A stretch of 32,000 bases of DNA from Opitutales bacterium (lineage in GTDB: Bacteria > Verrucomicrobiota > Verrucomicrobiia > Opitutales > Coraliomargaritaceae): the NCBI GenBank assembly GCA_049606355.1, contig JBMYVL010000002.1, positions 210,001-242,000 on the forward strand, given 5' to 3'. Under the pieces are notes generated by a model. The model made no database searches. It was not told the DNA's origin and saw only the letters and a list, made by a program, of their open reading frames with translations. A program made the position numbers and the translations under genes. Position 1 is the stretch's first letter; each line of letters begins with the position of its first letter. Below are positions 93 through 24,594 of this stretch, piece by piece.

Positions 93-309
93 ATCAGGGT
101 AGGAGGTTAATAAAGTATTTGTATATTAACGTCACAGTAGCGGATTCACAATAACGAGTTATGAACGAAATTTTCACAGAAATGAAACACAGCGGGAGGA
201 TCACTCAGCCTCAGCCAATCATTCAATAACTATTATTATTTTGATATTTTTATTGAAATATGAAACTCATATGCTAAGGTACTGGCTTAATTTATTGCAC
301 CGCGAGTTA

Positions 310-1481: not shown

Positions 1482-1502
1482 AGACGACTGGATTAGTCGT
1501 CT
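1482..1502. terminator. Hairpin between convergent genes; possible weak bidirectional terminator
   Basis: AGACGACT (1482..1489), a GGATT loop, then AGTCGTCT (1495..1502) give a perfect 8-bp stem. It lies 6 nt after the regulator stop (1474..1476) and overlaps the stop codon of the GH10 gene (1493..1495). The plus strand has a modest T-rich tail (AATTCAATTTTG); the minus strand has no T-tract. Confidence 0.3.
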
Positions 1503-5764: not shown

Positions 5765-5817
5765 AAATACAGATCGATCAATTAGTATGGCCCTAAGGGC
5801 CCATACATCAAACAAAG

Positions 5818-7986: not shown

Positions 7987-8000
7987 TGGTAATCGATTTG

Positions 8001-8031
8001 AAAAATAAAGGGGCGACACGATCGCCCCTTT
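8001..8031 (-). terminator. Rho-independent-type terminator or attenuator hairpin downstream of the giant repeat-protein gene
   Basis: The minus strand reads AAAGGGGCGA-TCGTG-TCGCCCCTTT followed by ATTTTT. That is a perfect 10-bp GC-cored stem (8007..8016 pairs with 8022..8031), a 5-nt loop and a T-tract (8001..8006). It starts 29 nt after the stop at 8060..8062 and ends 14 nt before the GH52 ATG at 7986. Confidence 0.65.
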
Positions 8032-12531: not shown

Positions 12532-14037
12532 CTAAAACTGAGTCGCTCCACTAATCGAATGAGGGTCGATTTTGAAAGCCGCCAACCGGCCGACTTTGTC
12601 ACCTGGTATACTGTAGTTAAACTGCGGTGCATTTTCATCTAGTTCATGTCGCCAGACCTTAAAAAATGGAGGCGTCGACGTTTCCGTAAGAAAATCATTC
12701 TGACGCCCCATCCATGCAAAGAGCTCACGCTTCAGCCGCTCCTTGATCCCACGCTTGTCGGGATCTTTGGCCAGATTGACCAGCTCAAAGGGATCCACCG
12801 CGACATCATACAACTCTTCTTCGGGCTGATTTGGGTGTTTATCGGCTCCCTGCTTTAAAAAAAAGTAGACCAAAGCATCCTCTACCCGAAGCTTCGCCAA
12901 ATGTTCGTTTGAATTAAAGTTATAAATATAGTGATAACGACCATCATGAATGGAACGCTGCGGAAAAACATGGCGATTCTGAATCCCCTGATTGTGGCTT
13001 ACCGCATAAGCATATTGGTGGTGCTGCTTCGCGCGGCCTTCAAGTACCGGCAACAAGCTTTTGCCATCAAAGGCGTGGTCACCCACTCGGTAACTGGAGC
13101 TGGCCAAATCGATTGCCGTGGGCACGAAGTCCGCAAAGGTAATGATTGCATCGCTACGGCCTGGTATAATTTTGTCCGGCCAGCGCACCATATAAGCCAC
13201 ATTGAGCCCGGAATCATACACTGTAAACTTGCCACGTGCGACCCCATGGTCGTCGGCGTAAAAAACGATCGTATCGTTTTCTAAGCCGTGTTTTTCGAGG
13301 AGGCGCAAGACGGCCTCAAACTCATTTTCTTTTTCGGCAATACTTTGATAATAGCGGCTGACATAAGCGCGGGTTCCCGGAGAGTCCTGCTGGAAGGGCG
13401 CAAGAGCCACTGAATCTGGCTCGAAACTCGAATCCTTAAAGTAAGGGCCGTGCGGGTACTCACTGGCGAGGATCAAACAAAAGGGGTTTTCGCGACTGCC
13501 TAAATAGCGATCCAGCGCAGCAATGGGTAACCCGGGGCGCGGGTAGCCTGGCTTCCGAACCGGTTGGTACCAGTTCGTCCAAGGAAATTGATGGTTTGGC
13601 TTGAGATGGGATTTACCGGCTAGAATGACATCGTAGCCCAACGGTTTCAGGTACGCAGGCAGCGTCTTCACGCTAGGGCGTATCGCGGTATGATTGATAA
13701 AGCAGCCATTTCGAATCGGGTATAAGCCCGTCAACAGCATCGAGCGACTCGGCGCGCAGATTGCCTGCCCCGTGTAGGCTTTATTAAAAACGAGCGCTTG
13801 CCTGCTGAACGCTTCCGTAATCGGTGTTGGCGCCTTTAGGTTGCCGTAAATACGATGATCCGAGCGGCTTTGGTCATCTGCTAAAAAAAAGATGATGTTC
13901 GGACGACTGCCTTGTAAGCCAGTAAACTTTTCTTCCGAATGAACGGCGCATATGAAAGCAGTCTGCGCAGCAAGGAAGAGCAAGAGTACCCATGTATTTC
14001 GCAGACTCATGAACCCGGCAGTCCATTGCTCACTCAT
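12532..14037 (-). CDS. Secreted Cys-type (formylglycine) sulfatase
   Basis: 501 aa. It has PNIIFFLADDQ (metal-binding DD) and the sulfatase signature ICAPSRSMLLTGLYP, with the FGly Cys codon at 13756..13758. The ATG at 14037 overlaps the upstream stop (ATGAGTGA). The alternative ATG at 14010 gives a cleaner signal peptide (MSLRNTWVLLLFLAAQTAFICAVHS). Confidence 0.9.
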   Translation of the reverse strand: MSEQWTAGFMSLRNTWVLLLFLAAQTAFICAVHSEEKFTGLQGSRPNIIFFLADDQSRSDHRIYGNLKAPTPITEAFSRQALVFNKAYTGQAICAPSRSMLLTGLYPIRNGCFINHTAIRPSVKTLPAYLKPLGYDVILAGKSHLKPNHQFPWTNWYQPVRKPGYPRPGLPIAALDRYLGSRENPFCLILASEYPHGPYFKDSSFEPDSVALAPFQQDSPGTRAYVSRYYQSIAEKENEFEAVLRLLEKHGLENDTIVFYADDHGVARGKFTVYDSGLNVAYMVRWPDKIIPGRSDAIITFADFVPTAIDLASSSYRVGDHAFDGKSLLPVLEGRAKQHHQYAYAVSHNQGIQNRHVFPQRSIHDGRYHYIYNFNSNEHLAKLRVEDALVYFFLKQGADKHPNQPEEELYDVAVDPFELVNLAKDPDKRGIKERLKRELFAWMGRQNDFLTETSTPPFFKVWRHELDENAPQFNYSIPGDKVGRLAAFKIDPHSISGATQF

Positions 14038-16822
14038 CGATTTGTACCTTATAAAATTTGTTCGGTATTCCCTGATGAGTCTCAGTCCAATAATTCAAGC
14101 CGCCAAAGGTACCCGGTAAGGCCTCGACTTCGACCTGCCAATCACTTTGCGCCAGGTCCGTCTTACTGAGCACACGGTAGTGCACGGAATCACTACCAAA
14201 CCAGCTGATTTCATTGCTCGTCTCTCCTGCAGAGAGACTATTAAATGCGAATCGTGAATTGGCGTTGGTGGGTATCGTACCCGAGCGGTATTCAAGCCGA
14301 TTGGAAAGACCATCCATATCGCTATCCACATCCGGACTCGTTTGATTACTTCCAAAGTAAGCGACTTCCCAACTATCGGGAATCCCATCTTGATCGGTAT
14401 CGGACGGATTGACACCGGGCGTTTCTGCCACGAGCGAAAAGTCGTCCACGTAGATATCTACTCCCGCAGGAACACCTCCAATGTAGATCGACTCATCGCC
14501 CTCTGTGGCTACAAAGGTACCTGACAACTCCACCCAATCATTGATATAAGTGGCTTGGGCAACCGTGCTATAAGTCGTGCCCGATGCGGTATTCTTACGA
14601 GTCAATTTGGCCAGTACGTTGCTTTGACTGAGCCGGAGGCGACAAGCGATTTGGTAACTGTTGCCGAGCGTTAAATCATCCAGCAAATACCGAATTCCGC
14701 TGTAGTTTTGCGTGCGATTGCTAATCAATAAGGATTGGGAGCCAGCGTAGGCATAACTATTCGTGATCGAACGATCCGCCGGCCCCATGTAGTTAAAAGG
14801 CGCCAATTGCGATTCATTACTAATCGATCCAATGGTTGAGTTCTCAAAACCAGGGTTTGTAATTAAATTGGTACCTGTTCCGCTTGCGCCGACCGTAAAC
14901 GCAAGCGCTGCATTTAAGGCAGCTCCATCGTTCTGCTCGCCGACAGCGGATAAGGTGTAGTCGCCCTCAGGTCGGTCATATAGCTTTGCGGTATAGGGAG
15001 CTACCGCGTCCGTTTTAATTAAAACGTTATCCACATAAAACGAAATACGACTCAAGTCCGCACTCGCATTACCTTGCGCTTCAACTTCGATCGGTTCGTT
15101 TGGATAAAACGCTTCCCCACTGGTTGGCTTTAGGAAGCTAATCGCCGGGGTATCGGGCGGAGGTTCTTCCAGACCCACAGCAATCCGGTAGTAGCTCTGC
15201 ATCGTGGCCAATGTATCGGCATAAGCGGATGCACCGACCACATTCGACCACTCGTTCGGGTCGGTGCTGTGGTCGTACAATTCTTCTTCTCCATCACGGT
15301 AAAGGATGTAACGGAATTGTTCGCTGCGGATACTGAAGTGCTGATCCGTGTAGGGAGCGACTTGGTTTTGGGATACTGAAGCCGATGAACCAATACCTGC
15401 AACCGAGTAGCTCGGCCCATCCCATTGCCCGTTCTGCGGGTCGGCCAAATACGCACGCATCGAATAGCCATCTAAAGTATGCGGTGCGTTCAGCCCCGCG
15501 TAATCGATACAAGTAGGATAGATATCAACTAAAGAAACCGGCTTGTTGCACTCTTGGTTCGCCGCAACCCCAGGGCCGGCAATAACTAAGGGTACTCGGA
15601 CACTTTCCTCCCAAGGACTTTGTTTAAAGATATAAGACTTTTCTCCCAAATGGTAGCCGTGGTCACTGGTGAAGATAAGGATCGTGTTGTCGCGAATAGT
15701 GGGATCGTTACTATTATCAATCGCATCCATCACCTTACCCACCTGAGCATCTACAAAAGCGACGCAAGCCAAGTACGCTTGGGTGAATTCTTTTAAAGCA
15801 CGCTCGGCATCGCCATACTCCGCTATACCCATATTTTTGTATTGAGTATACTTCCACCAACCCGAATTCTGTGCCAGGTCTTTATCGGTACTGTTAACCG
15901 GCCCGGTAATATCATTGTAGTCACTGGCATTAATTGGCGCTAATTGAATCTCATTCAATGCCGGCACGAGATCAAAAAACTCTTTCGGCGCATAATAGGG
16001 TGAGTGCGGACGAACAAATCCTACCGTTAATAAAAAGGGCTTATTCTTATCGTAACCGTTGATGAAATTGACCGCTTGCTGTGCGCTGATTTCATCTGAA
16101 GTCAAATCCCGCGTGTCATCCGAAAAATCATTCGGTGTGCCGTTATCATCATAGTTCCAAGTGGTATAGGATGCATTGTTCGACCCGCCCGACTGCAACG
16201 TCCATTGATGCCCATAACTACTCAAATCCCGATAGTAGCCAAAGCCGCTATAAGGGGGCGTCACGTTATCCTTATAACCATCTCCCCACCAGGAAGGGTC
16301 GACGCCCTGAAATTGAGGGGTGCTGGTATTTGGATACGGACCAAAATTACCCTTAGTACCATAGCCCGAAGAGCCATCGGTATTACGCATAATCGTTGAG
16401 TAGGAACTCTCATGGCCATTGTGATGGATCTTACCCGTGGCATAACTATAGTAGCCCTGATCAATGAAGGTTTCAAAAAGTGTTTTTTTGTTTCGTAATA
16501 CTACATTGTTGTCCCAGCGATTGGTTTGCTGATCTTGACCATACATGCCCGAAGTAACCGGATGGATGCCGCTCCATAAACTCGCACGAGAAGGTCCACA
16601 AATTGGCGCGTTGGAGGCCGCATTGGTAAAACGAACCCCTGACTCCATCAATCGAGTAATATTTGGCGTGTAAGCCTGAGGGTGGCCGCCGATGCCTTCG
16701 ATGGTATCGTTGAGATCATCACAAACGATCACCACAATATTCGGCGACTGCGCCTGCAACGACGAGAAACCGAACAAAGTAGAGACCACAGCGAGCAAAT
16801 AGAGAATGGGGTAATTCTTCAT
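14030..16822 (-). CDS. Secreted Cys-type sulfatase fused to Ig-like domain, CBM4/9-like domain, TSP3-like repeats and C-terminal domain
   Basis: 930 aa. The signal peptide is MKNYPILYLLAVVSTLFGFSSLQA. Sulfatase motifs are VVIVCDDLND, ICGPSRASLWSGIHP (Cys75, 16598..16600) and IFTSDHGYHLGEK. The tail (aa ~560-930, nt 14033..15145) is colinear with the tail of the GH10 at 1493..4357: FYPNEPIEVEA..., NLITNPGFENS, DTDQDGIPDSWEVAYFGS, DSDMDGLSN, ISWFGSDSVHYRVLSKTDL..DW...KFYKVQIDE. Confidence 0.9.
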   Translation of the reverse strand: MKNYPILYLLAVVSTLFGFSSLQAQSPNIVVIVCDDLNDTIEGIGGHPQAYTPNITRLMESGVRFTNAASNAPICGPSRASLWSGIHPVTSGMYGQDQQTNRWDNNVVLRNKKTLFETFIDQGYYSYATGKIHHNGHESSYSTIMRNTDGSSGYGTKGNFGPYPNTSTPQFQGVDPSWWGDGYKDNVTPPYSGFGYYRDLSSYGHQWTLQSGGSNNASYTTWNYDDNGTPNDFSDDTRDLTSDEISAQQAVNFINGYDKNKPFLLTVGFVRPHSPYYAPKEFFDLVPALNEIQLAPINASDYNDITGPVNSTDKDLAQNSGWWKYTQYKNMGIAEYGDAERALKEFTQAYLACVAFVDAQVGKVMDAIDNSNDPTIRDNTILIFTSDHGYHLGEKSYIFKQSPWEESVRVPLVIAGPGVAANQECNKPVSLVDIYPTCIDYAGLNAPHTLDGYSMRAYLADPQNGQWDGPSYSVAGIGSSASVSQNQVAPYTDQHFSIRSEQFRYILYRDGEEELYDHSTDPNEWSNVVGASAYADTLATMQSYYRIAVGLEEPPPDTPAISFLKPTSGEAFYPNEPIEVEAQGNASADLSRISFYVDNVLIKTDAVAPYTAKLYDRPEGDYTLSAVGEQNDGAALNAALAFTVGASGTGTNLITNPGFENSTIGSISNESQLAPFNYMGPADRSITNSYAYAGSQSLLISNRTQNYSGIRYLLDDLTLGNSYQIACRLRLSQSNVLAKLTRKNTASGTTYSTVAQATYINDWVELSGTFVATEGDESIYIGGVPAGVDIYVDDFSLVAETPGVNPSDTDQDGIPDSWEVAYFGSNQTSPDVDSDMDGLSNRLEYRSGTIPTNANSRFAFNSLSAGETSNEISWFGSDSVHYRVLSKTDLAQSDWQVEVEALPGTFGGLNYWTETHQGIPNKFYKVQIDE

Positions 16823-16840
16823 ACTATTTTTGATTTTAGT

Positions 16841-18421
16841 TTAATTAACAACTTTTCCAAGGGCAGAATCCATTTTTTGACGCAGGCGAAGTAGTACCGA
16901 AGTATACTTTTTAGAACGACTTAAATTAACCCATTCGTTTGGATCCTGCATATGATCATAAAGCTCCTCTTCACCATTGCGACAGCGGATATAACGATAG
17001 CGCTCGGTGCGCAGACTGAAATGTTGCTCCTCAATCGGAGCGGGTTGATGCAACTGCGAAGGCAAACGTGACCCACAGGCCGACAAGGAATAATCAGGGC
17101 CGGACCAAAGCCCATCCTTTGGTCTTTCCAACAAGGGCCGCAACGAGTAGCCATCGAGAGGATGCGAGGGCTTGAGTTGCGCATAATCCAAGCAAGTCGG
17201 GAAAACATCGACCAAAGAAACCGGCGTCTTTGATTGCTCTCCTCGAGCGACTCCGGGCCCGGCAACCACTAAAGGAATACGCACACTCTCTTCCCACGGT
17301 GTGAGTTTAAAGATGTAATCCTTCTCTCCCATGTGGTAGCCGTGATCGCTCGTAAAGATAATCAAGGTATTGTCAGCATCGCCACGCGCTTCGACCGCAT
17401 CGAGGATCTTACCGACTTGTGCGTCCACAAAAGCGACGCAAGCGAGGTAAGCTTGGGTCCAACGCTTAAGCTTGGCCTCTCCACCATGATTCATAATCTT
17501 TGAATACTTCGACCAGCCCCAGGGTTGGGCTAAATCCTGCTTCTCCGCCAAGATCTTCGCACAATCCGCTAGGTCGTCCTCCATCCGTGGGGTTAGTTCG
17601 ACGCTTTCCAGTGGAAAGAGATCAAAAAACTCCTGTGGCGCGTACCAAGGCGAATGGGGACGTGAAAAACCAACTGTAAGCAGGAAGGGTTTTTCATGCT
17701 CTCTTTCCAAAAAAGCAACTGCTTCATCCGCATGCACTTCATCCGGCATCAAGTCACGGTTATGACCATCGCGGTATTCCCAAATCGCCCCATTGTAAAA
17801 CAGGGTCCATTGATACTGGTCTCCGTACTGTGAGAGATCTTGGATCGGGCCGAAACCGTCACCCCATCCCCCAATACGCTCTCCCTCACTCCACCACGGC
17901 GGCAAAATACCATGGCGCTTATTTGCAGGCTTACCATCATTTGGAAGCGGGCCAAAATTCGAATACGATCCCCATCCCGAGCTGCCATCTTGATTCTGAA
18001 AAATCTCCAAACGCTGATGCCCGTTGTGGTGAATTTTACCGGTAGCAAAATTATGGTAGCCCTGAGCGGTAAAAACTTCAAATAACGTCTTCTTATCCTG
18101 CAACACTACATTCTGATACCAGCGCTCTTTGTGTTGATTCCCACCATACAATCCAGTGGAAATCGGATGCAGCCCACTCCACAAGCTCGCTCTCGAAGGT
18201 CCACAGATCGGCGCATTGGAGGCCGCATTGGTAAAGCGTACACCCCGCTCAATCAGGCGATTGATATGTGGTGTTTGTGCCTGCGGATGCCCACCCATAC
18301 CTTCAATCGAATCATTTAAATCATCACAGATGATAATGATTACGTTCGGACGATCGTCCGCCTGTGCGAACTGCCAACTGGCAATGGTTATAAGAAGTAA
18401 TGAAAGTAATTTATGTAACAT
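16841..18421 (-). CDS. Secreted Cys-type sulfatase; tandem paralogue of the catalytic domain of 14030..16822
   Basis: 526 aa. The signal peptide is MLHKLLSLLLITIASWQFAQA. Motifs are IIIICDDLNDSIEGMGGHPQAQTP, ICGPSRASLWSGLHP and IFTSDHGYHMGEK. It aligns along its whole length with aa 1-550 of the neighbouring 930-aa sulfatase. Confidence 0.92.
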   Translation of the reverse strand: MLHKLLSLLLITIASWQFAQADDRPNVIIIICDDLNDSIEGMGGHPQAQTPHINRLIERGVRFTNAASNAPICGPSRASLWSGLHPISTGLYGGNQHKERWYQNVVLQDKKTLFEVFTAQGYHNFATGKIHHNGHQRLEIFQNQDGSSGWGSYSNFGPLPNDGKPANKRHGILPPWWSEGERIGGWGDGFGPIQDLSQYGDQYQWTLFYNGAIWEYRDGHNRDLMPDEVHADEAVAFLEREHEKPFLLTVGFSRPHSPWYAPQEFFDLFPLESVELTPRMEDDLADCAKILAEKQDLAQPWGWSKYSKIMNHGGEAKLKRWTQAYLACVAFVDAQVGKILDAVEARGDADNTLIIFTSDHGYHMGEKDYIFKLTPWEESVRIPLVVAGPGVARGEQSKTPVSLVDVFPTCLDYAQLKPSHPLDGYSLRPLLERPKDGLWSGPDYSLSACGSRLPSQLHQPAPIEEQHFSLRTERYRYIRCRNGEEELYDHMQDPNEWVNLSRSKKYTSVLLRLRQKMDSALGKVVN

Positions 18422-18432
18422 AACGAGAGGCT

Positions 18433-19587
18433 TTATTGAATTAATTGGCTAATCGCAAAATAGGCGGGCTTCGGTTTATAAGCGCGATCGAACAAAGCAG
18501 GATAAACGGTTCGCCCTTCAACCGGCCAATTCCTGAGCCATGAGTAATGGTCGACCACGCCCCAAAAGCTGACGCGCTCGATGACATCGCTGTACTCTAA
18601 GAATACTTCAAATAGATCTGAATACTTTTTCGCTTGTTGATTGAGAACACCCGGTGGAACTCCCTTTGTGTATGGATCCAATTCTTCCATGCGCTTCACA
18701 TTCAAACGGATGTCCGCACCACTTTCGGTATCTTTAGGATGAGGCAACACGCGTACGTCCAATTCTGAAATACTAATTGCGACGTTCGCCTCAGACAAAA
18801 CACGCAGCGCTGTCCGTAATTCTTTTTGGGTCGGCCACTCGAGGTGCCAATGCCCTTGCATGCCCACGCCATGAATCGGCACCCCATCAGCCTTTAAGTC
18901 TCGCACTAGGTTCGCAACAAATTGCGTCTTCACCAAGTCAGTCATGCTGTAATCATTATACAGCAGTCGTGCATCGGGGTCGGCCTCGTGGGCGAACTGG
19001 TATGCCAGCTTGATGTAATCGTCACCGATAATTTGAAACCATGGGGACTCTCGCAAAAATGCAACTTGCTCACCGTCGACAACCTTAAGGTCAACCGCTT
19101 CATTAACGACATCCCAATACTTGATGCGTCCTTTGTAGCGCTTCACTACGGTATGGATGTGGGTGCGCATACGTTCGATCAAAACCTCGCGACTGACACG
19201 GCGCCCCTCCTCGTCCACAAAAATCCAACTCGGCACCTGATGGTGCCAGACCAAGGCATGCCCGACGACTTCCATTTGCGCTGCTTCCGCTAAAGCCATC
19301 AGTGCATCGGCCGAAGCAAACTCAAATTCACCTTCGCGTGGCTGAAGGTACTGCATCTTCATACTGTTCTCTGCAGTCAAACAATTGAATTCACCTACCA
19401 GTAAAGCCAACTCACGCTTATCATTTCGAAACAACGAATCGCCATCGATACCGCCTGCCAATACGTTACCAATCAGAAATCGCTCCGCGTAGCGTTCTTT
19501 TAATGGAAGATGTGTTCCACCACCTGCACAGGCCACACCGTGCACAAGAATGAATAAAAATAGGGATAAGTGGATTCCTTTTTGCAT
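18433..19587 (-). CDS. Secreted GH10 endo-1,4-beta-xylanase, catalytic domain only, canonical motifs
   Basis: 384 aa with an N-terminal signal peptide. The GH10 motifs are canonical: FNCLTAENSMKM, GHALVWHHQVPSW, YWDVVNEAV (acid/base), HGVGMQGHWH, ISISELDV (nucleophile) and VSFWGVVD. Confidence 0.92.
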   Translation of the reverse strand: MQKGIHLSLFLFILVHGVACAGGGTHLPLKERYAERFLIGNVLAGGIDGDSLFRNDKRELALLVGEFNCLTAENSMKMQYLQPREGEFEFASADALMALAEAAQMEVVGHALVWHHQVPSWIFVDEEGRRVSREVLIERMRTHIHTVVKRYKGRIKYWDVVNEAVDLKVVDGEQVAFLRESPWFQIIGDDYIKLAYQFAHEADPDARLLYNDYSMTDLVKTQFVANLVRDLKADGVPIHGVGMQGHWHLEWPTQKELRTALRVLSEANVAISISELDVRVLPHPKDTESGADIRLNVKRMEELDPYTKGVPPGVLNQQAKKYSDLFEVFLEYSDVIERVSFWGVVDHYSWLRNWPVEGRTVYPALFDRAYKPKPAYFAISQLIQ

Positions 19588-19597
19588 AACAAGATCG

Positions 19598-21070
19598 TTA
19601 TAGTTTGGGCGTCCCCAAGCGTTCGTGCTTTTTTAAAAAATGCTGATAAGGCATCGTCGCATAACGCTCGACCTCCGCTCGAACCGCGGGGTCATTGAGA
19701 TCGGGGAACGGATTTCGTTCCAATGCTTTAAATAGTGCTTCTCTCGCCAATTGGACTTCCTGTGACGAAAAATCGGTCACTAAGGTGTAATCCTTTTTGT
19801 GCATCGATCCATTGCATCGATAGAGTCGTCCCTCACGACTGCCGTAAACTGGATCGACCGCCTCTAGCAGCCAATCTTTGGTTCGAACCATGCGCGCGGT
19901 TGCAATATAACTAAGGATGGAATCACGATAGGTATCCACTCGGCCCTGCAAGAAAGCCTTCATACTCACTCCATCGATCGCATAGTCATCTGGAAGATGA
20001 ATCCCCGCAAAGTCGAGCAAGGTAGGAAACACATCGACAAATTCCATCAACGCATTGGTCGCGCCTCTTTCCGCAACCATTCCAGGGCAATTGACGACAA
20101 ACGGCACACGCGGACCCTCCTCGGTAGCGTGCATCTTACTTGCTCCCGAAGTGCCATTATCCGAAGCAAAGATAATAAGGGTATTGTCGCGAAGGCCCAG
20201 GCGCTGCAACGCGTCAATCAAACGTCCAATCATTGCATCTACATACAGATTCAAAGCTTCTAAATTACCTCCCGTATTGCGACCCGGAATGCCGTCAGCG
20301 GGAACTGTAGGCAAGCCGCCACCGGCAATATCGTGGACTAAATTCATCGGGAAATAAGCGAGGAATGGCTGCTCCCGATGACGCTCCATAAAATCTATCA
20401 GAAAGTCTGTATATAGCTCGGGGGCAAAGTCCTCCGCGTCCGTCTCAACCAGTACCCCATTGTGAGTGATGGCTGGATGCCAGAAACGAGATGGTACTGG
20501 CTTTGATCCGGGGAATGCCCACTTCCCCTCAAATAAACCATCAAAGCTCCCATCCGCGGGTAATTTCTCATGCGCATTGATGTGCAGAAAATACTCATCA
20601 AAGCCAACATACTTTGAGTCTGGCTGGTGGTGGCCTAGGGCCATTTGCTTCCCAGAGATCGCAGTCCGATACCCATGCTCTCTTAAAACACGGGCGAACG
20701 TCAAATGCCCAAGCGCGTAATCCCAGCGACCATAATCCCCCTGTGGGATCCTCAAATCATTATGCCAAACTCCGGTTCGACTCGGATAACGCCCGGTGGT
20801 TAACAACGCGCGCGTGGGTGAGCACATCGGCGTCGCCCAAGCCATGTTAAAAAAAACACCCCCCTCAGCCAAGGTATCCACATGCGGGGTCGCATAGGCA
20901 GAATTGCCATAGCAACTGAAAGCTTCAGGGCTGATATCATCCACCATGATGATGAGAAAATTCGGCGGCCTTTCCATTTCAGCAGCAGCGACACGCACCC
21001 CCGAACAAAGATTCGCAGCAGTGCAACAGTACACCAGCCATAAAAGTAAGCCTGCTTTGTTTGTCTTCAT
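19598..21070 (-). CDS. Secreted Cys-type sulfatase (arylsulfatase-A-like)
   Basis: 490 aa with a signal peptide. Motifs are NFLIIMVDDISPE, MCSPTRALLTTGRYPSRTG (CxPxR) and IIFASDNG. There is a 1-bp spacer to the upstream gene and 10 bp to the downstream gene. Confidence 0.9.
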   Translation of the reverse strand: MKTNKAGLLLWLVYCCTAANLCSGVRVAAAEMERPPNFLIIMVDDISPEAFSCYGNSAYATPHVDTLAEGGVFFNMAWATPMCSPTRALLTTGRYPSRTGVWHNDLRIPQGDYGRWDYALGHLTFARVLREHGYRTAISGKQMALGHHQPDSKYVGFDEYFLHINAHEKLPADGSFDGLFEGKWAFPGSKPVPSRFWHPAITHNGVLVETDAEDFAPELYTDFLIDFMERHREQPFLAYFPMNLVHDIAGGGLPTVPADGIPGRNTGGNLEALNLYVDAMIGRLIDALQRLGLRDNTLIIFASDNGTSGASKMHATEEGPRVPFVVNCPGMVAERGATNALMEFVDVFPTLLDFAGIHLPDDYAIDGVSMKAFLQGRVDTYRDSILSYIATARMVRTKDWLLEAVDPVYGSREGRLYRCNGSMHKKDYTLVTDFSSQEVQLAREALFKALERNPFPDLNDPAVRAEVERYATMPYQHFLKKHERLGTPKL

Positions 21071-21071
21071 T

Positions 21072-22535
21072 TTAAAGGCGAGTTAAGACTACATCGATTT
21101 CAGGAGCTGTGCCTGCATCGGCAACAAAATGACCCAGATACTCATGCCCGTTCAAATTTACGCGCAGTCGGTAGTCCCCGTAAAAACCATTAAACGACAG
21201 CGTATTTTCCTGCGTCAGCTGTCCGTCAACTTCAGTAGTCCACTCATGATTGATCAGTTGATCCAGGACGGCATAGACCGGCTTGGGTGTGCCGTCGGCA
21301 TCTAATAGGCCGGCAGGCATCCCTCGCCAGGGATTTAAATCCGTGATCGACCACCACGTGATTGATGCGACCTGCGGATGACTGAACGCCAGGGTATAAA
21401 AGTCGCGTGTTAATGCCGCCTGATAAGCTTCCAACTGTGGCGTGCTGGTCAAGGTAGGGATCGCTGCGCCCTGATCCAGCGCTTGCTGCCAAGCCTTCTC
21501 CTGCACATCAAGGCCCTTCCAGTCTTCAAATCGCCCGCAGCTCAAAATACTCACTTCGGATAAATAAATGGGTTTCTGATACTGCGTATAAACTTCGAGC
21601 ATGTCCCACAGCGCAGCCTCGGAAAAGCTTTGGCTTACGGAATGCATGTGCGTCTGAATACCAATCGCGCCAACATCTGCACCGACCTGCAAGCAATGCT
21701 GGATTTGGCGGTGATAAAAAGGGTCGTCGTGCTGGTAATGGTTGAGAATATAAAAGCCTTCTGGGCGCGAGGCACGAGCGATCTCTAGAATTGCCTCGGT
21801 CACATAACCCGGCCCGGAGGTAAATCGGCCATCCGCCATTTCGTGCCCCATAAACGTCTGCCAGCGGCGCATCCCCGAAGACTCGTCTTTCCAGACAATA
21901 CCGGGAACTTCATTGTACAGGTCCCACTCGTCCACCTCAGGGTACTGCTCGATCAGAAATTTAACATGCCGACGTATATCTCGATCGATCGCTCGCACAT
22001 CGCGCTCTGCATCGTCAATCCATTCCGGAACCACCTGGTGCCAGACTAACGGGTGCCCCTTCAGGACCATGCCCTGCGCTTTGGCCCACTTTAATAATTC
22101 ACTGGATAAAGGTGCCGAATCATAATCCCACTTCCCGCGAATTTTTTCATGGCTCCCCCAATAGAAATTGATCGTGGCGTAGTTAAATAAGCGCGCAAAC
22201 AGCTGTTTAAAACGCGCGTACCAGGGCTGCGCCGGCACGCTCCAATCCGCTGCCAAAGAGCCACCAAACAAAAACGCATGTTTCGTTTGCTCTATCTGGT
22301 ATGTGGCACCTGCAGGGATGCTACGTCCACTGCTCTCTTTGATCGTTAACTTAAAATCTCCCTTGCGGTACTTTTCGATACGCTCTTTCGCTCCTTGTAG
22401 TTCCCATGGCACATGCGCCTCAACCACCAGGGGGTGAGCACCGATCTGGCTACTCGTCGAATTTGCCGCGCAGCCGAGCAAGCAAGCAAACTGCAACAAA
22501 CCAATGATTGCGTATACCTTGCCCATGGCGTGCAT
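21072..22535 (-). CDS. GH10-like (clan GH-A) glycoside hydrolase, predicted lipoprotein, with a divergent substrate-binding segment and a C-terminal beta-sandwich
   Basis: 487 aa. It has a lipobox, LLGC (Cys22). GH10-like landmarks appear in order: HAFLFGGS, FNYATINFYWGSHE, GHPLVWHQVVPEW, EWDLYNEV (acid/base), GAIGIQTHMH, IYLSEVSI (nucleophile position) and ITWWSITD. A second ATG lies at 22526. Confidence 0.8.
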   Translation of the reverse strand: MHAMGKVYAIIGLLQFACLLGCAANSTSSQIGAHPLVVEAHVPWELQGAKERIEKYRKGDFKLTIKESSGRSIPAGATYQIEQTKHAFLFGGSLAADWSVPAQPWYARFKQLFARLFNYATINFYWGSHEKIRGKWDYDSAPLSSELLKWAKAQGMVLKGHPLVWHQVVPEWIDDAERDVRAIDRDIRRHVKFLIEQYPEVDEWDLYNEVPGIVWKDESSGMRRWQTFMGHEMADGRFTSGPGYVTEAILEIARASRPEGFYILNHYQHDDPFYHRQIQHCLQVGADVGAIGIQTHMHSVSQSFSEAALWDMLEVYTQYQKPIYLSEVSILSCGRFEDWKGLDVQEKAWQQALDQGAAIPTLTSTPQLEAYQAALTRDFYTLAFSHPQVASITWWSITDLNPWRGMPAGLLDADGTPKPVYAVLDQLINHEWTTEVDGQLTQENTLSFNGFYGDYRLRVNLNGHEYLGHFVADAGTAPEIDVVLTRL

Positions 22536-22541
22536 TAAAAA

Positions 22542-24281
22542 CTAACGGACCTCTAAGGACATGCTCGCCTCGACTGGCGGATTCACACCATCTGAAACAT
22601 TTAAAATGAATGTGTTGATACCCCGATCCGACGCGGCAGGAGTGCCACTCAAACGTCCATACTGAGCATTGGTCATCTCCAGCCACTCCGGCCCCGAAAC
22701 CTTGCTGTAGGTTAAGCGGTCGTCATCCGCATCTGCGACCCTCCAATTGACATAGCTTTGGTAGGCCTCCCCGACAGTTGCAAAGGGCTGGCGAGTTCCT
22801 TTCTGGCTGAAATTCAGCGAGTTCCATTGCGGCGCAGCATTTTCAACCGCACTCGAGCTATCCAACTCGGTGCCGTCGTCGAACGCTAATTTTTCACGGT
22901 GCGTTTGGAGTAGTTGCGCCATTGCCTCTACAACCTTATGATAGCGAGGATCCGCGACCACATTCACGTCCTCGTGTGGATCCCTGCCATGATCAAACAA
23001 CATACTGCCCCCATCGCTCCACTCGCTATACTGAAAATTTGCAGTTCGTACCGTCTCTCCCGCATGGTAGCGCCCGAAAATGGCCTGCTTGTGGACACTC
23101 TCAGGGTTCTTCATGGTCGGCACTAAACTTTTACCCTGCAGGTGCGGGGGCAAATTCAAGCCCGCCAATTCACACAAAGTCGGATAGATGTCCACCATCT
23201 CCACCAACGACTGCACCCTCTGCCCAGCGGTGTAACCGGGTGCACTAATAATTAACGGTGCATGCATCGAGGTTTTAAACAAGGTGTGCTTACACCACAA
23301 GGAGTGATCTCCTAACTGAAAGCCATGATCCCCCCATAGAATAATGATGGTATCATCTAACATCGATTGGGCCTCTAACTCGTCCAACAGACGACCAATC
23401 ATCGCGTCGGTGTAAGAGACGCAAGCTAAATAACCGTGCACCAGCGCTTGGGCCATTGCATCGGAAACAGCACCCTGCTTGGGGACGCCGCCATAACTCC
23501 GCAATTCACCCCAAGTACTCCGGGCGGCATGCGGTGCATCCTCCGGAAAAAATGTGTAATTATGGGGTAGTTCTATGCTGGCTACATCATAGAGATCCCA
23601 GTATTTTTTCGGCGCGATAAATGGTAAGTGGGGTTTAGAAAAACCGGCCGTTAGGAAAAAGGGGCGGTCGGCGACCTTAGCCTCACGAATCTGCTCTATG
23701 ATCTTGTCGGTCATTTGACCTGTCGGATAGGCGCTATCAGGTACGTCGGCCGACTCATACGGTGGGCGCAACTCCTTGTTTTCCGGCTTTGCGTAAGCCC
23801 TAAAATAACTGGCACGGTCAATCACATCCCACGCTTTGGCATTATCATCCGCATGATGATAGATCTTACCCATCGAAAAGGTCTTATACCCACCCTGCTT
23901 AAACCAATCCGCGATGTCGGGCACATTCGGCGCCCCACTGCAGGTGTTGCGTGCATTGTGTCTACTCACGGTCGCTTGATCAAAACGAGACCCATACCAA
24001 GTGAAGCGCTGGTTCGTTGGGTATAAGCCCGACATTAAACTGGCTCTGGATGCACCACACACCGGAACTTGAACATACGCGTTCTCATACAACGTCCCCA
24101 TCTCGGCAAGGCGATTGATACTCGGACTACTCACCCGATCGACGCCATAACAACCCAGCTCAGGACGCAAATCATCCACTGCAATAAAAAGTACATGCGG
24201 CGTCTTCTGGTTCGGACCAGCAGATAAGGTCGTAACAGACAGCAAACCGACTAACAGGGATAATAAACAACGAATCTTCAT
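22542..24281 (-). CDS. Secreted Cys-type sulfatase (iduronate-2-sulfatase-like N-terminus) with a C-terminal Ig/cadherin-like domain; first gene of the minus-strand cluster
   Basis: 579 aa. The signal peptide is MKIRCLLSLLVGLLSVTTLSA. Motifs are VLFIAVDDLRPELGCYG, VCGASRASLMSGLYP (the CxAxR variant of the FGly motif) and ILWGDHGFQLGDH. The C-terminal ~70 aa (LTYSKVSGPEWLEM...LSGTPAASDRGINTFILNVSDG) resemble the 'putative Ig' (dystroglycan/cadherin-like) domain. Confidence 0.9.
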   Translation of the reverse strand: MKIRCLLSLLVGLLSVTTLSAGPNQKTPHVLFIAVDDLRPELGCYGVDRVSSPSINRLAEMGTLYENAYVQVPVCGASRASLMSGLYPTNQRFTWYGSRFDQATVSRHNARNTCSGAPNVPDIADWFKQGGYKTFSMGKIYHHADDNAKAWDVIDRASYFRAYAKPENKELRPPYESADVPDSAYPTGQMTDKIIEQIREAKVADRPFFLTAGFSKPHLPFIAPKKYWDLYDVASIELPHNYTFFPEDAPHAARSTWGELRSYGGVPKQGAVSDAMAQALVHGYLACVSYTDAMIGRLLDELEAQSMLDDTIIILWGDHGFQLGDHSLWCKHTLFKTSMHAPLIISAPGYTAGQRVQSLVEMVDIYPTLCELAGLNLPPHLQGKSLVPTMKNPESVHKQAIFGRYHAGETVRTANFQYSEWSDGGSMLFDHGRDPHEDVNVVADPRYHKVVEAMAQLLQTHREKLAFDDGTELDSSSAVENAAPQWNSLNFSQKGTRQPFATVGEAYQSYVNWRVADADDDRLTYSKVSGPEWLEMTNAQYGRLSGTPAASDRGINTFILNVSDGVNPPVEASMSLEVR

Positions 24282-24594
24282 AAGCTAGGGGATAAACGTC
24301 AAAAGCGAAAAATGAACCGCACTGTCCTGCAGCAAAGTGTAAAAGCAAAAAACTAACAGTCCTGTAGCGTAACAGCTTTGCAGCGCACTATAAAGAGGTA
24401 CTAATGACAATTATATGTTGAAAAATGAAACTCCACATTCTTCCATAAAACCCTCAATCATTTAAGGACTCGTCACCACAGATGCTGCACGCTGTGTTAA
24501 CGCGCAGCACTCAACCCCACCGAGCAGGCACAGCGCTACAGGATTGACCGCCCCGTGTGGACTCGTTTTAACCCCTATTAGAACTTTATGACTT
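24282..24594. promoter_or_regulatory. Divergent intergenic region expected to hold the promoter and operator of the sulfatase/xylanase cluster
   Basis: This is the only spacer over 120 bp upstream of the eleven-gene minus-strand cluster. It contains a direct repeat, GTCCTG(C/T)AGC, at 24324..24333 and 24359..24368. I could not identify convincing -35/-10 hexamers. Confidence 0.35.

What the first reader, a model, noticed from the sequence alone, without database searches (positions are those of the whole stretch)
12532..24281. Sulfatases interleaved with GH10 xylanases in one tightly packed cluster: candidate sulfated xylose-glycan utilisation system
Read directly from the sequence, the gene order from 24281 down is sulfatase, GH10-like, sulfatase, GH10, sulfatase, sulfatase-CBM, sulfatase. 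Spacers are 6, 1, 10, 11 and 18 bp, and the last pair overlaps by 8 bp. The cluster continues with a giant secreted repeat protein, a GH52 beta-xylosidase, a GPH symporter and a multidomain GH10. All five sulfatases keep the C-x-(P/A)-x-R formylglycine motif and carry signal peptides. Classical xylan loci for land-plant glucuronoarabinoxylan need no sulfatases, and classical algal sulfated-glycan loci (carrageenan, fucoidan, ulvan) are not built around GH10 plus GH52. The near-alternating arrangement and the apparent translational coupling suggest that desulfation and xylan-backbone cleavage act on one substrate. Candidates are a sulfated xylan, xylomannan or xylogalactan, or a Xyl-sulfate-bearing algal glycan. 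No SusC/SusD or TonB-dependent receptor gene lies in the window, so this is not a Bacteroidota-type PUL.
Basis: partly seen in the sequence, partly recalled or inferred. Interest (0 to 1): 0.8.

Follow-up and report, generated by a model that had tools for sequence, protein, structure and literature searches.

The report
Sulfatase–xylanase gene block, marine Verrucomicrobia
A marine Opitutales bacterium carries a tightly packed, evolutionarily conserved block of five sulfatases interleaved with two xylanases, most likely a pathway for eating sulfated xylan from algae; similar loci were already predicted in marine Bacteroidota, but no such pathway has been shown biochemically.

Summary
Seven co-directional minus-strand genes (12532-24281) run sulfatase, GH10, sulfatase, GH10, sulfatase, sulfatase-CBM, sulfatase, with the stated spacers. 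All five sulfatases keep the formylglycine motif.

The linkage is not chance.
- The same seven-gene order recurs in four other Opitutia species at 54-77% protein identity.
- A sulfatase sits directly beside the divergent GH10 in 17 of 18 PVC species, against 0 of 43 outgroup species.
- Close sulfB relatives in ocean metagenomes are flanked by GH10a in 14/14 informative contigs and by GH10b in 11/11.
- One Puniceicoccales isolate fuses sulfA-like, GH10 and sulfE-like domains into a single protein.
- Sulfatase D and xylanase GH10c share the same carbohydrate-binding tail (40% identity).
- SulfA's closest characterised relative is a xylose-2-sulfate sulfatase.

The best reading is a SusC/D-free pathway for a sulfated beta-xylan. 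Sulfate removal and backbone cleavage would happen outside the cytoplasm. A GPH symporter would import the products and a cytoplasmic GH52 would finish them.

The substrate is inferred, not shown. The novelty claim is overstated, because 'sulfated xylan PULs' with GH10-sulfatase fusions were predicted in marine Flavobacteriia in 2018-2020. I rate this a new variant of a known, uncharacterised kind.

The parts
22542..24281 (-). sulfA: exported S1 sulfatase (579 aa, CGASR), S1_7-like, with a C-terminal Ig-like (He_PIG) domain
   Evidence: Pfam Sulfatase 2.5e-46. Best solved relative is 6HHM at 2e-80 over residues 22-461. [quoted passage not shown] The next hits are iduronate-2-sulfatases. Orthologues at 46-71% identity lie in nearly all closer PVC loci.
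21072..22535 (-). GH10a: exported (LLGC lipobox-like) divergent GH10 of the AcXyn10A subgroup, with a C-terminal beta-sandwich
   Evidence: Pfam GH10 1.7e-28. The clade profile hits 8B73 AcXyn10A at 5e-76. AF2 model pLDDT 92.5; top fold match is 8B73 with TM 0.87. N208-E209 and E327 are invariant. Basic residues specific to the sulfatase-linked clades are H129, H266, R377 and R404.
19598..21070 (-). sulfB: exported S1 sulfatase (490 aa, CSPTR), subfamily unresolved
   Evidence: Pfam Sulfatase 3.6e-40. PDB hits are only weak and partial, to S1_16, S1_15 and S1_19 members. In metagenomes, relatives at 66% identity or more are flanked by GH10a (14/14 informative) and GH10b (11/11).
18433..19587 (-). 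GH10b: exported canonical GH10 endo-xylanase (384 aa)
   Evidence: Pfam GH10 1.3e-92. Best PDB hits are 4K68, IXT6 and Cellvibrio mixtus Xyn10B. The WDVVNE and ISELD catalytic motifs are present. It is paired with a sulfC orthologue in L019, L021 and L022.
16841..18421 (-). sulfC: exported S1 sulfatase (526 aa, CGPSR) with a roughly 100-aa insertion; paralogue of sulfD
   Evidence: Pfam Sulfatase 1.1e-52 spanning residues 25-415. It is 52% identical to the sulfD catalytic domain. PDB hits (6HR5, choline sulfatases, 6HHM) do not resolve the subfamily.
14030..16822 (-). sulfD: exported S1 sulfatase (930 aa, CGPSR) carrying a Big_7-CBM4_9-TSP3-tail cassette
   Evidence: Pfam. The C-terminal 376 aa are 40% identical to the C-terminal cassette of GH10c.
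12532..14037 (-). sulfE: exported S1 sulfatase (501 aa, CAPSR), S1_8-like
   Evidence: Pfam Sulfatase 2e-36. The best full-length PDB matches are S1_8A/B/C sulfatases and N-sulphoglucosamine sulphohydrolase. Homologues at 36-40% identity (310-340 bits) sit in Flavobacteriaceae xylose loci. Its homologue forms the C-terminal domain of the L008 fusion protein.
8060..12415 (-). Giant exported protein (1451 aa): five copies of a module of about 250 aa (A+B halves), Asp-rich TSP3-like repeats and a C-terminal tail. Possible lectin-like surface glycan binder.
   Evidence: No Pfam or NCBIfam hit. Internal repeats were mapped. The module family has only 89 cluster representatives among 1.84 billion, mostly stand-alone proteins of 270-320 aa. 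The AF2 model is low-confidence (pLDDT 55) and resembles legume-lectin/ConA-like folds at TM about 0.45. Homologues follow the heptad in L010 and L013 and sit in L007, L008 and L017.
5818..8019 (-). GH52 beta-xylosidase, no signal peptide (cytoplasmic)
   Evidence: Pfam GH52 4.6e-146. N-terminus read. Orthologues at 58-62% identity are in L007, L018, L021, L022 and L025.
4370..5824 (-). GPH-family (MFS_2) glycoside:cation symporter
   Evidence: Pfam MFS_2 2.4e-85. TIGR00792 gph scores 339.8 bits, above its cutoff. It is conserved next to GH52 in relatives.
1493..4357 (-). GH10c: exported multidomain GH10 (954 aa) with the Big_7-CBM4_9-TSP3-tail cassette
   Evidence: Pfam. WDFNNE and ITELD motifs. 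Cassette shared with sulfD. Homologues in L019 and L058.
241..1476 (+). Regulator 1: periplasmic-binding-protein-like sensor domain plus AraC-type HTH (XylR-like architecture)
   Evidence: Pfam Peripla_BP_3 plus HTH_18. Orthologues at 59-66% identity are in L007, L008, L019 and L025.
24282..24594 (-). 313-bp non-coding stretch upstream of sulfA, the likely promoter region of the block (inferred)
   Evidence: It is the only gap longer than 18 bp upstream of the seven genes. The promoter scan was uninformative.
25377..26927 (-). Exported SASA-family carbohydrate esterase, a possible accessory deacetylase. Membership of the system is uncertain.
   Evidence: Pfam SASA 1.1e-16. A 32%-identical homologue lies in the Bacteroidetes locus L040. 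It is absent upstream of the heptad in L011.
27124..28230 (-). Regulator 2: second PBP-like plus AraC HTH regulator. Membership of the system is uncertain.
   Evidence: Pfam. About 30% identical to the regulator 1 orthologues.

Best explanation
The block is the core of a SusC/SusD-independent pathway by which a marine Opitutales (Verrucomicrobiota) bacterium uses a sulfated beta-xylan, either 1,4-linked or mixed 1,3/1,4-linked.

Proposed sequence of steps:
1. The polymer is captured at the cell surface. The CBM4_9 cassettes on sulfatase D and xylanase GH10c would do this, possibly helped by the lectin-like giant protein.
2. Exported sulfatases strip sulfate esters. SulfA is S1_7-like and may act as an endo xylose-2-O-sulfatase on the chain. 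SulfE (S1_8-like), sulfB and sulfC would work on oligosaccharides.
3. Exported GH10 enzymes (GH10c, GH10a, GH10b) cut the backbone. The GH10a clade may tolerate sulfated xylose.
4. Neutral xylo-oligosaccharides enter through the GPH symporter.
5. The signal-peptide-less GH52 beta-xylosidase cleaves them to xylose in the cytoplasm.
6. An XylR-like PBP/AraC regulator controls the set.

Shown here: gene content, catalytic motifs, export signals read by eye, conservation of order, reciprocal adjacency, the domain fusion, the shared CBM cassette and the homology relations.

Inferred: the substrate, the position of sulfation, the cellular location, the order of steps and co-transcription.
For: Heptad conservation: the order sulfA-GH10a-sulfB-GH10b-sulfC-sulfD-sulfE(-giant) is kept in L010, L011 and L013 and as far as the contig reaches in L012. 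Protein identities are 54-77%. The flanks are unrelated, with housekeeping genes upstream in L011.

More distant relatives: Opitutia, Kiritimatiellota and Planctomycetota keep GH10a with sulfB and sulfA orthologues. Several also keep GH52-GPH (L007, L018, L021, L022) or a GH10b-sulfC pair (L019, L021, L022).

Enrichment:
- A sulfatase lies within the flank in 18/18 PVC loci, 16/19 Flavobacteria-type loci and 6/43 outgroup loci.
- A sulfatase is directly adjacent in 17/18, 5/19 and 0/43.
- Fisher p is 1e-10 (PVC presence), 2e-7 (Flavobacteria-type presence) and 3e-14 (PVC adjacency).

Reciprocal test: sulfB relatives at 66% identity or more are flanked by GH10a in 14/14 and GH10b in 11/11 informative ocean-metagenome contigs. 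Paralogues at 39% or less have no GH10 nearby.

Fusion: the L008 1285-aa protein has a sulfA-like domain (416 bits), a GH10 domain (224 bits) and a sulfE-like domain (336 bits).

Shared cassette: the Big_7-CBM4_9-tail cassette is 40% identical between sulfD and GH10c.

Sulfatase homology: sulfA's best solved relative is the xylose-2-sulfate endo-sulfatase P18_S1_7. SulfE is closest to S1_8, which holds the exo xylose-2-sulfatase P32_S1_8.

GH10a: it belongs to a subgroup with proven endo-1,4-beta-xylanases, AcXyn10A and Fsa02490Xyn. Its catalytic residues are invariant.

Location: GH52 has no signal peptide, while all sulfatases and GH10s have one.

Flavobacteriaceae: loci with a GH10a homologue and a sulfE homologue also hold GH43 xylosidases, an FGGY-family sugar kinase and an HTCS regulator.

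Substrate plausibility: sulfated xylans and sulfated mixed-linkage xylans are reported in red algal walls (PMC12223506).
Against: No enzyme of this or any homologous locus has been assayed, and no sulfated-xylan degradation pathway was found in the searchable literature.

Sulfatase subfamilies could not be assigned with SulfAtlas models. S1_7 and S1_8 are polyspecific: S1_7 also holds iduronate-2-sulfatase and a kappa-carrageenan 4-sulfatase.

The subfamilies of sulfB, sulfC and sulfD are unresolved.

A 57%-identical sulfE homologue in Pelagicoccus mobilis sits with GH141 and GH3 and no GH10. Another sulfE-like sulfatase is fused to GH26.

The window holds no formylglycine-generating enzyme, xylose isomerase or xylulokinase.

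Adjacent hexuronate genes (uxaC, uxaB-type, uxaA) could mean that the polymer also carries uronic acids.

The species counted in the enrichment test are phylogenetically related, so the p-values overstate independence.
Confidence: 0.6

Rival explanations
1. The backbone is a xylan, but the sulfate esters removed are on side-chain sugars (for example sulfated glucuronic acid, galactose or arabinose substituents), not on xylose itself. The sulfatases would then clear decorations so that the GH10 enzymes can bind.
For: S1_7 includes uronic-acid 2-O-sulfatases such as iduronate-2-sulfatase, which is sulfA's second-best solved relative. Hexuronate catabolic genes (uxaC, uxaB-type, uxaA) and a carbohydrate esterase lie just upstream. 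The subfamilies of sulfB, sulfC and sulfD are unresolved.
Against: No side-chain-removing glycosidase is present in the window or the PVC relatives: no GH67/115 glucuronidase, GH43/51 arabinofuranosidase or galactosidase. SulfA's best hit by a wide margin is the xylose-2-sulfatase, at 274 bits against 180 for iduronate-2-sulfatase. The hexuronate genes are not conserved next to the heptad in L011.
Confidence: 0.2
2. The target is a different sulfated heteroglycan that merely contains xylose or xylose-sulfate, such as ulvan, sulfated xylomannan, xylogalactan or xylose branches of fucoidan. The GH10 enzymes would cut non-classical linkages.
For: The characterised relatives of sulfA and sulfE (P18_S1_7, P32_S1_8) come from an ulvan pathway. 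A sulfE-like sulfatase is fused to GH26, a family I recall as holding mannanases and beta-1,3-xylanases. A sulfE homologue lies next to GH141.
Against: The window and the related PVC loci contain no polysaccharide lyase, GH78/GH105, fucosidase, mannanase or galactanase. All catalytic glycosidases there belong to GH10 or GH52. All characterised GH52 enzymes are beta-xylosidases (from memory of CAZy). The nearest characterised GH10a relatives are endo-1,4-beta-xylanases.
Confidence: 0.13
3. It is an ordinary xylan locus into which unrelated sulfatase genes have drifted, because Opitutales genomes are very rich in sulfatases. The interleaving would have no functional meaning.
For: PVC marine genomes are known to carry very many sulfatases (from memory; the topic of PMC8857213). 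No expression or biochemical data exist for this locus.
Against: Orthologous sulfatases keep the same positions across five species with different flanks. Adjacency is 17/18 against 0/43 in the outgroup, which includes sulfatase-rich Planctomycetota. The reciprocal adjacency holds in metagenomes. A sulfatase-GH10-sulfatase fusion exists, and a sulfatase and a xylanase share a CBM cassette.
Confidence: 0.04

Closest known systems
Predicted 'sulfated xylan / xylose-rich' PULs of marine Flavobacteriia (Formosa, Polaribacter, Aurantivirga; PMC6298971, PMC6794258, PMC7242417)
   Same: GH10 is co-localised with several sulfatases and a beta-xylosidase-family gene. A sulfatase-domain-containing GH10 is reported there, and the analogous fusion is seen here in L008. 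Flavobacteriaceae loci retrieved here carry a homologue of the GH10a clade (33-35% identity) and of sulfE (36-40%). The function there is also only predicted.
   Different: Those loci are SusC/SusD-based with HTCS regulators and use GH3, GH43 or GH30 xylosidases. This one has no SusC/D or TonB receptor. It uses a GPH symporter plus a cytoplasmic GH52 and an XylR-like regulator. It has five sulfatases in a fixed interleaved order, a CBM-bearing sulfatase and a giant lectin-like protein, and it lies in Verrucomicrobiota.
Ulvan pathway sulfatases of Formosa agariphila: P18_S1_7 (PDB 6HHM) and P32_S1_8
   Same: P18_S1_7 is the closest characterised relative of sulfA (2e-80, roughly 40% identity by eye over about 440 residues). 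Both enzymes remove 2-O-sulfate from xylose (PMC9096561). SulfE resembles S1_8 members.
   Different: The ulvan locus is built on ulvan lyases, a rhamnosidase and unsaturated glucuronyl hydrolases, none of which is present here. In ulvan the xylose-2-sulfate lies in a rhamnose-containing repeat, not in a xylan.
Gram-positive xylan systems with an extracellular GH10, oligosaccharide import and an intracellular GH52 beta-xylosidase (Geobacillus stearothermophilus type; recalled from memory)
   Same: The logic is the same: exported GH10 endo-xylanase, then oligosaccharide transporter, then cytoplasmic GH52. GH10b's close solved relatives include the Geobacillus xylanase IXT6.
   Different: Those systems have no sulfatases and use ABC transport rather than a GPH symporter. 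They target land-plant glucuronoxylan and include glucuronidases.
AcXyn10A (PDB 8B73) / Fsa02490Xyn subgroup of GH10
   Same: GH10a shares the fold (TM 0.87), the C-terminal beta-sandwich and the catalytic residues. Members of the subgroup are proven endo-1,4-beta-xylanases.
   Different: The marine sulfatase-linked clades carry basic residues on the catalytic face where non-linked members have D, Q, Y or V/E: H266 in the N-D-Y motif, R404 next to W403, and H129. The non-linked members have no sulfatase neighbours.
PVC sulfated-glycan loci for fucoidan (for example Lentimonas or Planctomycetota fucoidan clusters; PMC11685898, PMC8857213)
   Same: They are sulfatase-rich, SusC/D-free gene clusters in the PVC superphylum that pair exported sulfatases with glycosidases.
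   Different: Those clusters are built around fucosidases and fucanases (GH29, GH95, GH141, GH107/168). This one is built exclusively around GH10 and GH52.

Membership tests
S1 formylglycine-dependent sulfatases | Sulfatase catalytic domain (Pfam PF00884) | tested here: met
   All five proteins, E 2e-36 to 1.1e-52, above the gathering score.
S1 formylglycine-dependent sulfatases | C/S-x-P/A-x-R formylglycine motif plus metal-binding DD and D(H/N)G motifs | tested here: met
   CGASR, CSPTR, CGPSR, CGPSR and CAPSR. DD lies at residues 32-55 and DHG or DNG is present in each.
S1 formylglycine-dependent sulfatases | A maturation enzyme (FGE or anSME) available to convert Cys to formylglycine | not tested
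   None is encoded in the 32-kb window. The rest of the genome was not available.
SulfAtlas subfamily S1_7 (for sulfA) | Closest to S1_7 members by sequence, or a hit to the SulfAtlas S1_7 model | tested here: inconclusive
   The top two solved relatives are S1_7 enzymes: 6HHM at 2e-80 and iduronate-2-sulfatase at 5e-52. SulfAtlas HMMs were not available, so formal assignment is open.
SulfAtlas subfamily S1_8 (for sulfE) | Closest to S1_8 members by sequence, or a hit to the SulfAtlas S1_8 model | tested here: inconclusive
   The best full-length PDB matches are S1_8A/B/C chains and N-sulphoglucosamine sulphohydrolase, but only at E 1e-21 to 1e-25. NCBIfam gave nothing above its cutoffs.
Glycoside hydrolase family 10 | GH10 (beta/alpha)8 domain | tested here: met
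   Pfam PF00331 in three proteins: 1.3e-92, 1.7e-28 and 2.9e-47. The GH10a model matches only GH10 xylanases in the top 50 fold hits.
Glycoside hydrolase family 10 | Catalytic pair: Asn-Glu acid/base after strand 4 and Glu nucleophile after strand 7 | tested here: met
   GH10a has N208-E209 and E327, invariant in 36 sequences and placed at the ends of strands 203-208 and 323-330. GH10b has WDVVNE and ISELD. GH10c has WDFNNE and ITELD.
Glycoside hydrolase family 10 | Endo-beta-xylanase activity | not testable with these tools
   Only inferred from characterised relatives: AcXyn10A and Fsa02490Xyn for GH10a, and 4K68, IXT6 and Xyn10B for GH10b.
Glycoside hydrolase family 52 beta-xylosidase | GH52 domain over its full length | tested here: met
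   PF03512 at 4.6e-146, covering profile positions 1-413 of 413.
Bacteroidota polysaccharide utilisation locus (PUL) | Adjacent SusC-like TonB-dependent transporter and SusD-like lipoprotein | tested here: not met
   No Plug, TonB_dep_Rec or SusD domain appears in any of the 16 ORFs of 150 aa or more in the window. The organism is an Opitutales MAG.
'Sulfated xylan' degradation locus as predicted by Krueger et al. 2019 | GH10 co-localised with at least two sulfatases and a beta-xylosidase-family gene | tested here: met
   Three GH10, five sulfatases and a GH52 within 23 kb.
'Sulfated xylan' degradation locus as predicted by Krueger et al. 2019 | GH10 fused to a sulfatase domain | tested here: not met
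   No fusion exists in the window. The fusion exists in a relative, the L008 1285-aa protein.
'Sulfated xylan' degradation locus as predicted by Krueger et al. 2019 | Activity on, or induction by, a sulfated xylan | not testable with these tools
   No biochemical or expression data exist for this locus, and none was found for any homologous locus.
Ulvan utilisation locus | Ulvan lyase (PL24/25/28/40) with GH105/GH88 and a GH78 rhamnosidase | tested here: not met
   No lyase, GH78, GH88 or GH105 domain appears in the window or in the related PVC loci examined.

The most novel reading that the evidence does not exclude
The marine GH10a clade would be a new functional type of GH10: an endo-xylanase whose cleft is adapted to bind sulfated xylose. 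The candidate residues are basic ones on the catalytic face (H129, H266 replacing the Asp of the N-D-Y motif, and R404). Together with five position-specific sulfatases it would form the first complete enzymatic route for sulfated xylan. That glycan has been inferred from phytoplankton-bloom metaproteomes but has never been isolated together with its degrading enzymes. The rare lectin-like module of the giant protein (89 cluster representatives among 1.84 billion) would then be a new family of sulfated-xylan-binding proteins, taking the place of SusD-like binders in PVC bacteria.
Probability: 0.3. Interest if true: 0.75.

Novelty: new variant of a known kind. Interest (0 to 1): 0.55.

Why it matters
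Sulfated xylans have been listed among the main glycans targeted by bacteria in North Sea spring algal blooms. That listing rests on gene content and transporter expression in Flavobacteriia only. Neither the polymer nor any enzyme acting on it has been characterised.

This locus shows that free-living marine Verrucomicrobiota, Kiritimatiellota and Planctomycetota carry a homologous but differently organised system without SusC/D. It is found in ocean metagenome assemblies from several projects, including Tara Oceans.

The system is a compact, fixed set of seven enzymes, and in one isolate three of the activities are fused in a single protein. That gives a short, concrete list of proteins to express. 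It makes three questions directly testable: what the marine sulfated xylan is, where it is sulfated, and who degrades it. If GH10a proves to accept sulfated substrate, it would extend the known specificity of one of the best-studied glycosidase families.

Tried and rejected
Searches and analyses that led nowhere:
- Promoter and terminator consensus scans across 7900-27200 gave counts at shuffle expectation: 17 found against 18.4 expected, and 25 against 20.1. They say nothing about operon structure.
- A search for shared 9-mers among the intergenic regions, looking for a possible regulator box, found nothing beyond chance.
- The NCBIfam scan gave no sulfatase model above its cutoff, so it did not help with subfamily assignment.
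- The word-indexed homologue search with the giant protein's module returned nothing. The exhaustive representative search did find the family, with 89 representatives.
- AF2 on the giant's module with a 3-sequence alignment gave pLDDT 55. I treat the legume-lectin/ConA-like match as a weak hint only.
- A search of the Kappelmann et al. supplements and the Avci et al. text for sulfatase subfamily labels of the Flavobacterial sulfated-xylan PULs found none.
- The window's own genome is not among the GTDB species representatives; the best GH10a match there is 64%. The organism label comes from the exact-sequence look-up.

Readings considered and rejected:
- Ulvan locus: no lyases or rhamnosidase are present.
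- Fucoidan locus: no fucosidases are present.
- Bacteroidota PUL: no SusC/D is present.
- Chance clustering in a sulfatase-rich genome: contradicted by the conserved order, the reciprocal adjacency and the fusion.

Full report
**1. Observation**

Seven minus-strand ORFs run from 24281 down to 12532.

Pfam assigns the following:
- a Sulfatase domain to five of them (E 2e-36 to 1e-52);
- Glyco_hydro_10 to the other two (1.3e-92 for 18433-19587 and 1.7e-28 for 21072-22535);
- Big_7 plus CBM_4_9 to the 930-aa sulfatase.

I call the genes sulfA, GH10a, sulfB, GH10b, sulfC, sulfD and sulfE in the order of transcription.

The spacers are 6, 1, 10, 11 and 18 bp, followed by an 8-bp overlap. Two start codons are ambiguous. 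Gene callers start GH10a three codons later. SulfE has a second Met at codon 10.

All five sulfatases carry C-x-(P/A)-x-R together with the DD and D(H/N)G metal-binding motifs. All three GH10 proteins keep the Asn-Glu acid/base and the Glu nucleophile.

Downstream lie four more genes:
- a 1451-aa protein with no family hit;
- GH52 (4.6e-146);
- a GPH symporter (TIGR00792 above its cutoff);
- a 954-aa GH10 with Big_7 and CBM_4_9.

A divergently oriented PBP/AraC regulator follows.

Reading the N-termini, every sulfatase, every GH10, the giant protein and the SASA esterase begin with a signal-peptide-like segment. GH10a has an LLGC lipobox-like motif. GH52 has no such segment. No SusC, SusD or TonB-receptor domain occurs in the window.

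The exact GH10b and sulfA proteins are on record from an NCBI MAG labelled Opitutales bacterium (contig 261 kb). The exact GH10b protein is on at least 23 metagenome contigs.

**2. Is the linkage more than chance?**

GH10a has a clade of homologues in Opitutia, Kiritimatiellota, Planctomycetota and marine Bacteroidota. I scanned the species-representative genomes with a profile of that clade, which gave 80 loci. I then searched their ORFs with all window proteins.

Three genomes carry the identical order sulfA-GH10a-sulfB-GH10b-sulfC-sulfD-sulfE: an Opitutia MAG (L010), a Coraliomargaritaceae MAG (L011) and a Tara Puniceicoccaceae MAG (L013). A second Coraliomargaritaceae MAG (L012) shows the same order up to sulfD, where its contig ends. 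L010 and L013 are followed by a giant-protein homologue. Protein identities are 54-77%.

Upstream of the block in L011 are unrelated housekeeping genes. The seven genes therefore travel as a unit.

More distant PVC genomes keep GH10a with sulfB and sulfA orthologues. Several also keep GH52 with the GPH symporter, a GH10b-sulfC pair, and the same regulator.

Counting species representatives:

| Group | Sulfatase within the fetched flank | Sulfatase directly adjacent |
|---|---|---|
| PVC loci | 18/18 | 17/18 |
| Flavobacteria-type loci | 16/19 | 5/19 |
| Outgroup GH10a-like loci | 6/43 | 0/43 |

The outgroup is mostly non-marine Planctomycetota and Armatimonadota. Fisher p is 1e-10 for PVC presence, 2e-7 for Flavobacteria-type presence and 3e-14 for PVC adjacency. 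The species are related, so these p-values are generous.

I also ran the reciprocal test, scanning metagenome contigs with sulfB. All 20 contigs with relatives at 66% identity or more show the same neighbours. They come from Tara Oceans and other metagenome assemblies. GH10a is directly upstream in 14 of 14 informative cases, and GH10b is directly downstream in 11 of 11. The 22 contigs with paralogues at 39% or less show no GH10.

**3. Independent signs of functional coupling**

- In the isolate labelled Puniceicoccales bacterium CK1056, one 1285-aa protein joins three domains: sulfA-like (416 bits), GH10 (224 bits, best match GH10b) and sulfE-like (336 bits).
- The C-terminal 376 residues of sulfD are 40% identical to the C-terminus of xylanase GH10c. 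This region comprises Big_7, CBM4_9, Asp-rich TSP3-like repeats and a tail. A sulfatase and a xylanase of the same locus therefore carry the same targeting cassette.
- SulfC and sulfD are 52% identical paralogues, one with the cassette and one without.

**4. What the parts are**

*SulfA.* Its best solved relative by a wide margin is 6HHM (2e-80, residues 22-461). [quoted passage not shown] Iduronate-2-sulfatases come next.

*SulfE.* Its best full-length matches are S1_8 chains and N-sulphoglucosamine sulphohydrolase. S1_8 contains the exo xylose-2-sulfatase P32_S1_8.

*SulfB, sulfC and sulfD.* They could not be placed.

*GH10a.* It belongs to the AcXyn10A subgroup. The clade profile hits 8B73 at 5e-76. 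The AF2 model (pLDDT 92.5) superposes on 8B73 with TM 0.87. AcXyn10A and Fsa02490Xyn are endo-1,4-beta-xylanases.

I compared the sulfatase-linked clades with the non-linked outgroup.
- The linked clades carry conserved basic residues at H266, R377 (Lys in Flavobacteria) and R404. The outgroup has D, V/E and Q at these positions.
- The PVC clade additionally has H129, R178 and R223.
- In the model, H266 is the last residue of strand 5, in the N-D-Y motif position.
- R404 follows W403 in the strand-8 loop, and H129 sits in the strand-2 loop. All three are on the catalytic face of the barrel.

This fits recognition of an anionic substrate but proves nothing.

*GH10b.* It is a canonical GH10, closest to 4K68, IXT6 and Cellvibrio mixtus Xyn10B.

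*The giant protein.* It consists of five copies of a two-part module of about 250 aa. The module family has only 89 cluster representatives in 1.84 billion, mostly stand-alone proteins of 270-320 aa. Several of these lie in the related loci, and one has a weak PEP-CTERM match. A low-confidence model resembles legume-lectin/ConA-like sandwiches.

**5. Mechanism proposed**

1. The polymer is captured at the surface by the CBM cassettes and perhaps by the lectin-like protein.
2. Desulfation and endo-cleavage take place outside the cytoplasm.
3. Neutral xylo-oligosaccharides are imported through the GPH symporter.
4. The cytoplasmic GH52 hydrolyses them to xylose.

Only the gene-level facts are shown. 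The substrate, the 2-O position, the order of steps and co-transcription are inferred.

Natural candidates exist: sulfated xylans and sulfated mixed-linkage beta-1,3/1,4-xylans are reported in red algal walls (PMC12223506). Marine xylans have also been reported in green, red and brown macroalgae and in some diatoms.

**6. Evidence against, and rivals**

- S1_7 and S1_8 are polyspecific.
- A 57%-identical sulfE homologue in Pelagicoccus mobilis lies with GH141 and GH3 and no GH10.
- Another sulfE-like sulfatase is fused to GH26.
- Hexuronate genes flank the locus.

A xylan with sulfated side chains is therefore a serious rival (0.2). A different xylose-containing heteroglycan is less likely (0.13), because no lyase, fucosidase, mannanase or rhamnosidase is present in any of the PVC loci. 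Chance clustering is nearly excluded (0.04).

**7. Comparison with what is known**

The closest known thing is the 'sulfated xylan / xylose-rich' PUL type predicted in marine Flavobacteriia. It includes a sulfatase-domain-containing GH10 (PMC6298971, PMC6794258, PMC7242417).

The Flavobacteriaceae loci I retrieved are homologous in part. One is a North Sea MAG with GH43 xylosidases, an FGGY-family sugar kinase, an HTCS regulator, a GH10a homologue and a sulfE homologue.

What differs here:
- the phylum;
- the absence of SusC/D;
- the route through a GPH symporter and a cytoplasmic GH52;
- the fixed interleaved heptad;
- the CBM-bearing sulfatase;
- the giant repeat protein.

I found no paper describing GH10-sulfatase loci in PVC bacteria. 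I also found no biochemical demonstration of sulfated-xylan degradation in any organism.

**8. Verdict**

The functional coupling is strongly supported, the substrate is inferred, and the novelty is overstated.
- Novelty: a new variant of a known but uncharacterised kind.
- Interest: 0.55.
- The most novel reading not excluded is a sulfate-accepting GH10 clade together with a new family of sulfated-xylan-binding modules. I put its probability at about 0.3.

Noticed in passing
window 1-24000 versus 24000-32000: G+C is 0.44-0.52 across the xylan/sulfatase cluster but 0.53-0.59 in the region upstream of it. The heptad also has unrelated flanks in L011. Together these hint that the block moves between genomes as a unit.
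   Followed up: partly
window 24595-24960 (+) and 24957-25352 (-): Two small convergent, slightly overlapping genes for DoxX_2-family membrane proteins sit between the heptad and the SASA esterase gene. No link to the system is evident.
   Followed up: partly
window 28352-32000 (+): A hexuronate catabolism set lies here: uxaC (glucuronate isomerase, 1.2e-191), a mannitol-dehydrogenase-family oxidoreductase (uxaB/uxuB type), and the start of an altronate/galactarate dehydratase running off the window end. It is transcribed divergently from a second PBP/AraC regulator.
   Followed up: partly
L007 12687-13865, L021 12842-13984; L007 7998-10004, L009 6275-8347, L021 6171-8177: More distant PVC versions of the locus contain two conserved genes that the window lacks. 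One encodes a 380-392-aa protein with no Pfam hit, wedged between the sulfatases. The other encodes a 670-690-aa GHL6/GH42M-like putative glycosidase, often followed by an FGGY kinase.
   Followed up: no
L091 1893-4349 (protein P0195): This is an 818-aa metagenomic protein that fuses a sulfE-like sulfatase (55% identity) to a GH26 domain. From memory, GH26 holds mannanases and beta-1,3-xylanases. It is a second kind of sulfatase-glycanase fusion.
   Followed up: partly
L090 (Pelagicoccus mobilis, GCA_042434375.1): A cultured Opitutia strain has a 57%-identical sulfE homologue in a different cluster. That cluster holds GH141, GH3, three further full-length sulfatase genes plus a short sulfatase fragment, an esterase and a large CBM6/F5_F8 protein, but no GH10.
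   Followed up: no
window 8060-8230, 14033-14200, 1496-1660 (C-termini of giant, sulfD, GH10c): By eye, all three large exported proteins of the locus end in Asp-rich TSP3-like repeats followed by a similar tail of about 55 aa (W..G....L.S..DL...W ... KF[FY]K[LV]). It may be a PVC sorting or anchoring domain. It is confirmed by alignment only for sulfD versus GH10c.
   Followed up: partly
L007 6032-6931: A stand-alone 299-aa homologue of the giant protein's module has a weak PEP-CTERM match at its C-terminus (E 0.0034, below the Pfam cutoff). This suggests the module family is surface-anchored.
   Followed up: no
L108 (Ga0208390_1021032): This is the one sulfB-bearing metagenome contig that does not fit the pattern. 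Only the C-terminal 194 residues of sulfB are present, preceded by 1.1 kb with no match to any window protein. It may be a chimeric assembly or a rearrangement.
   Followed up: no
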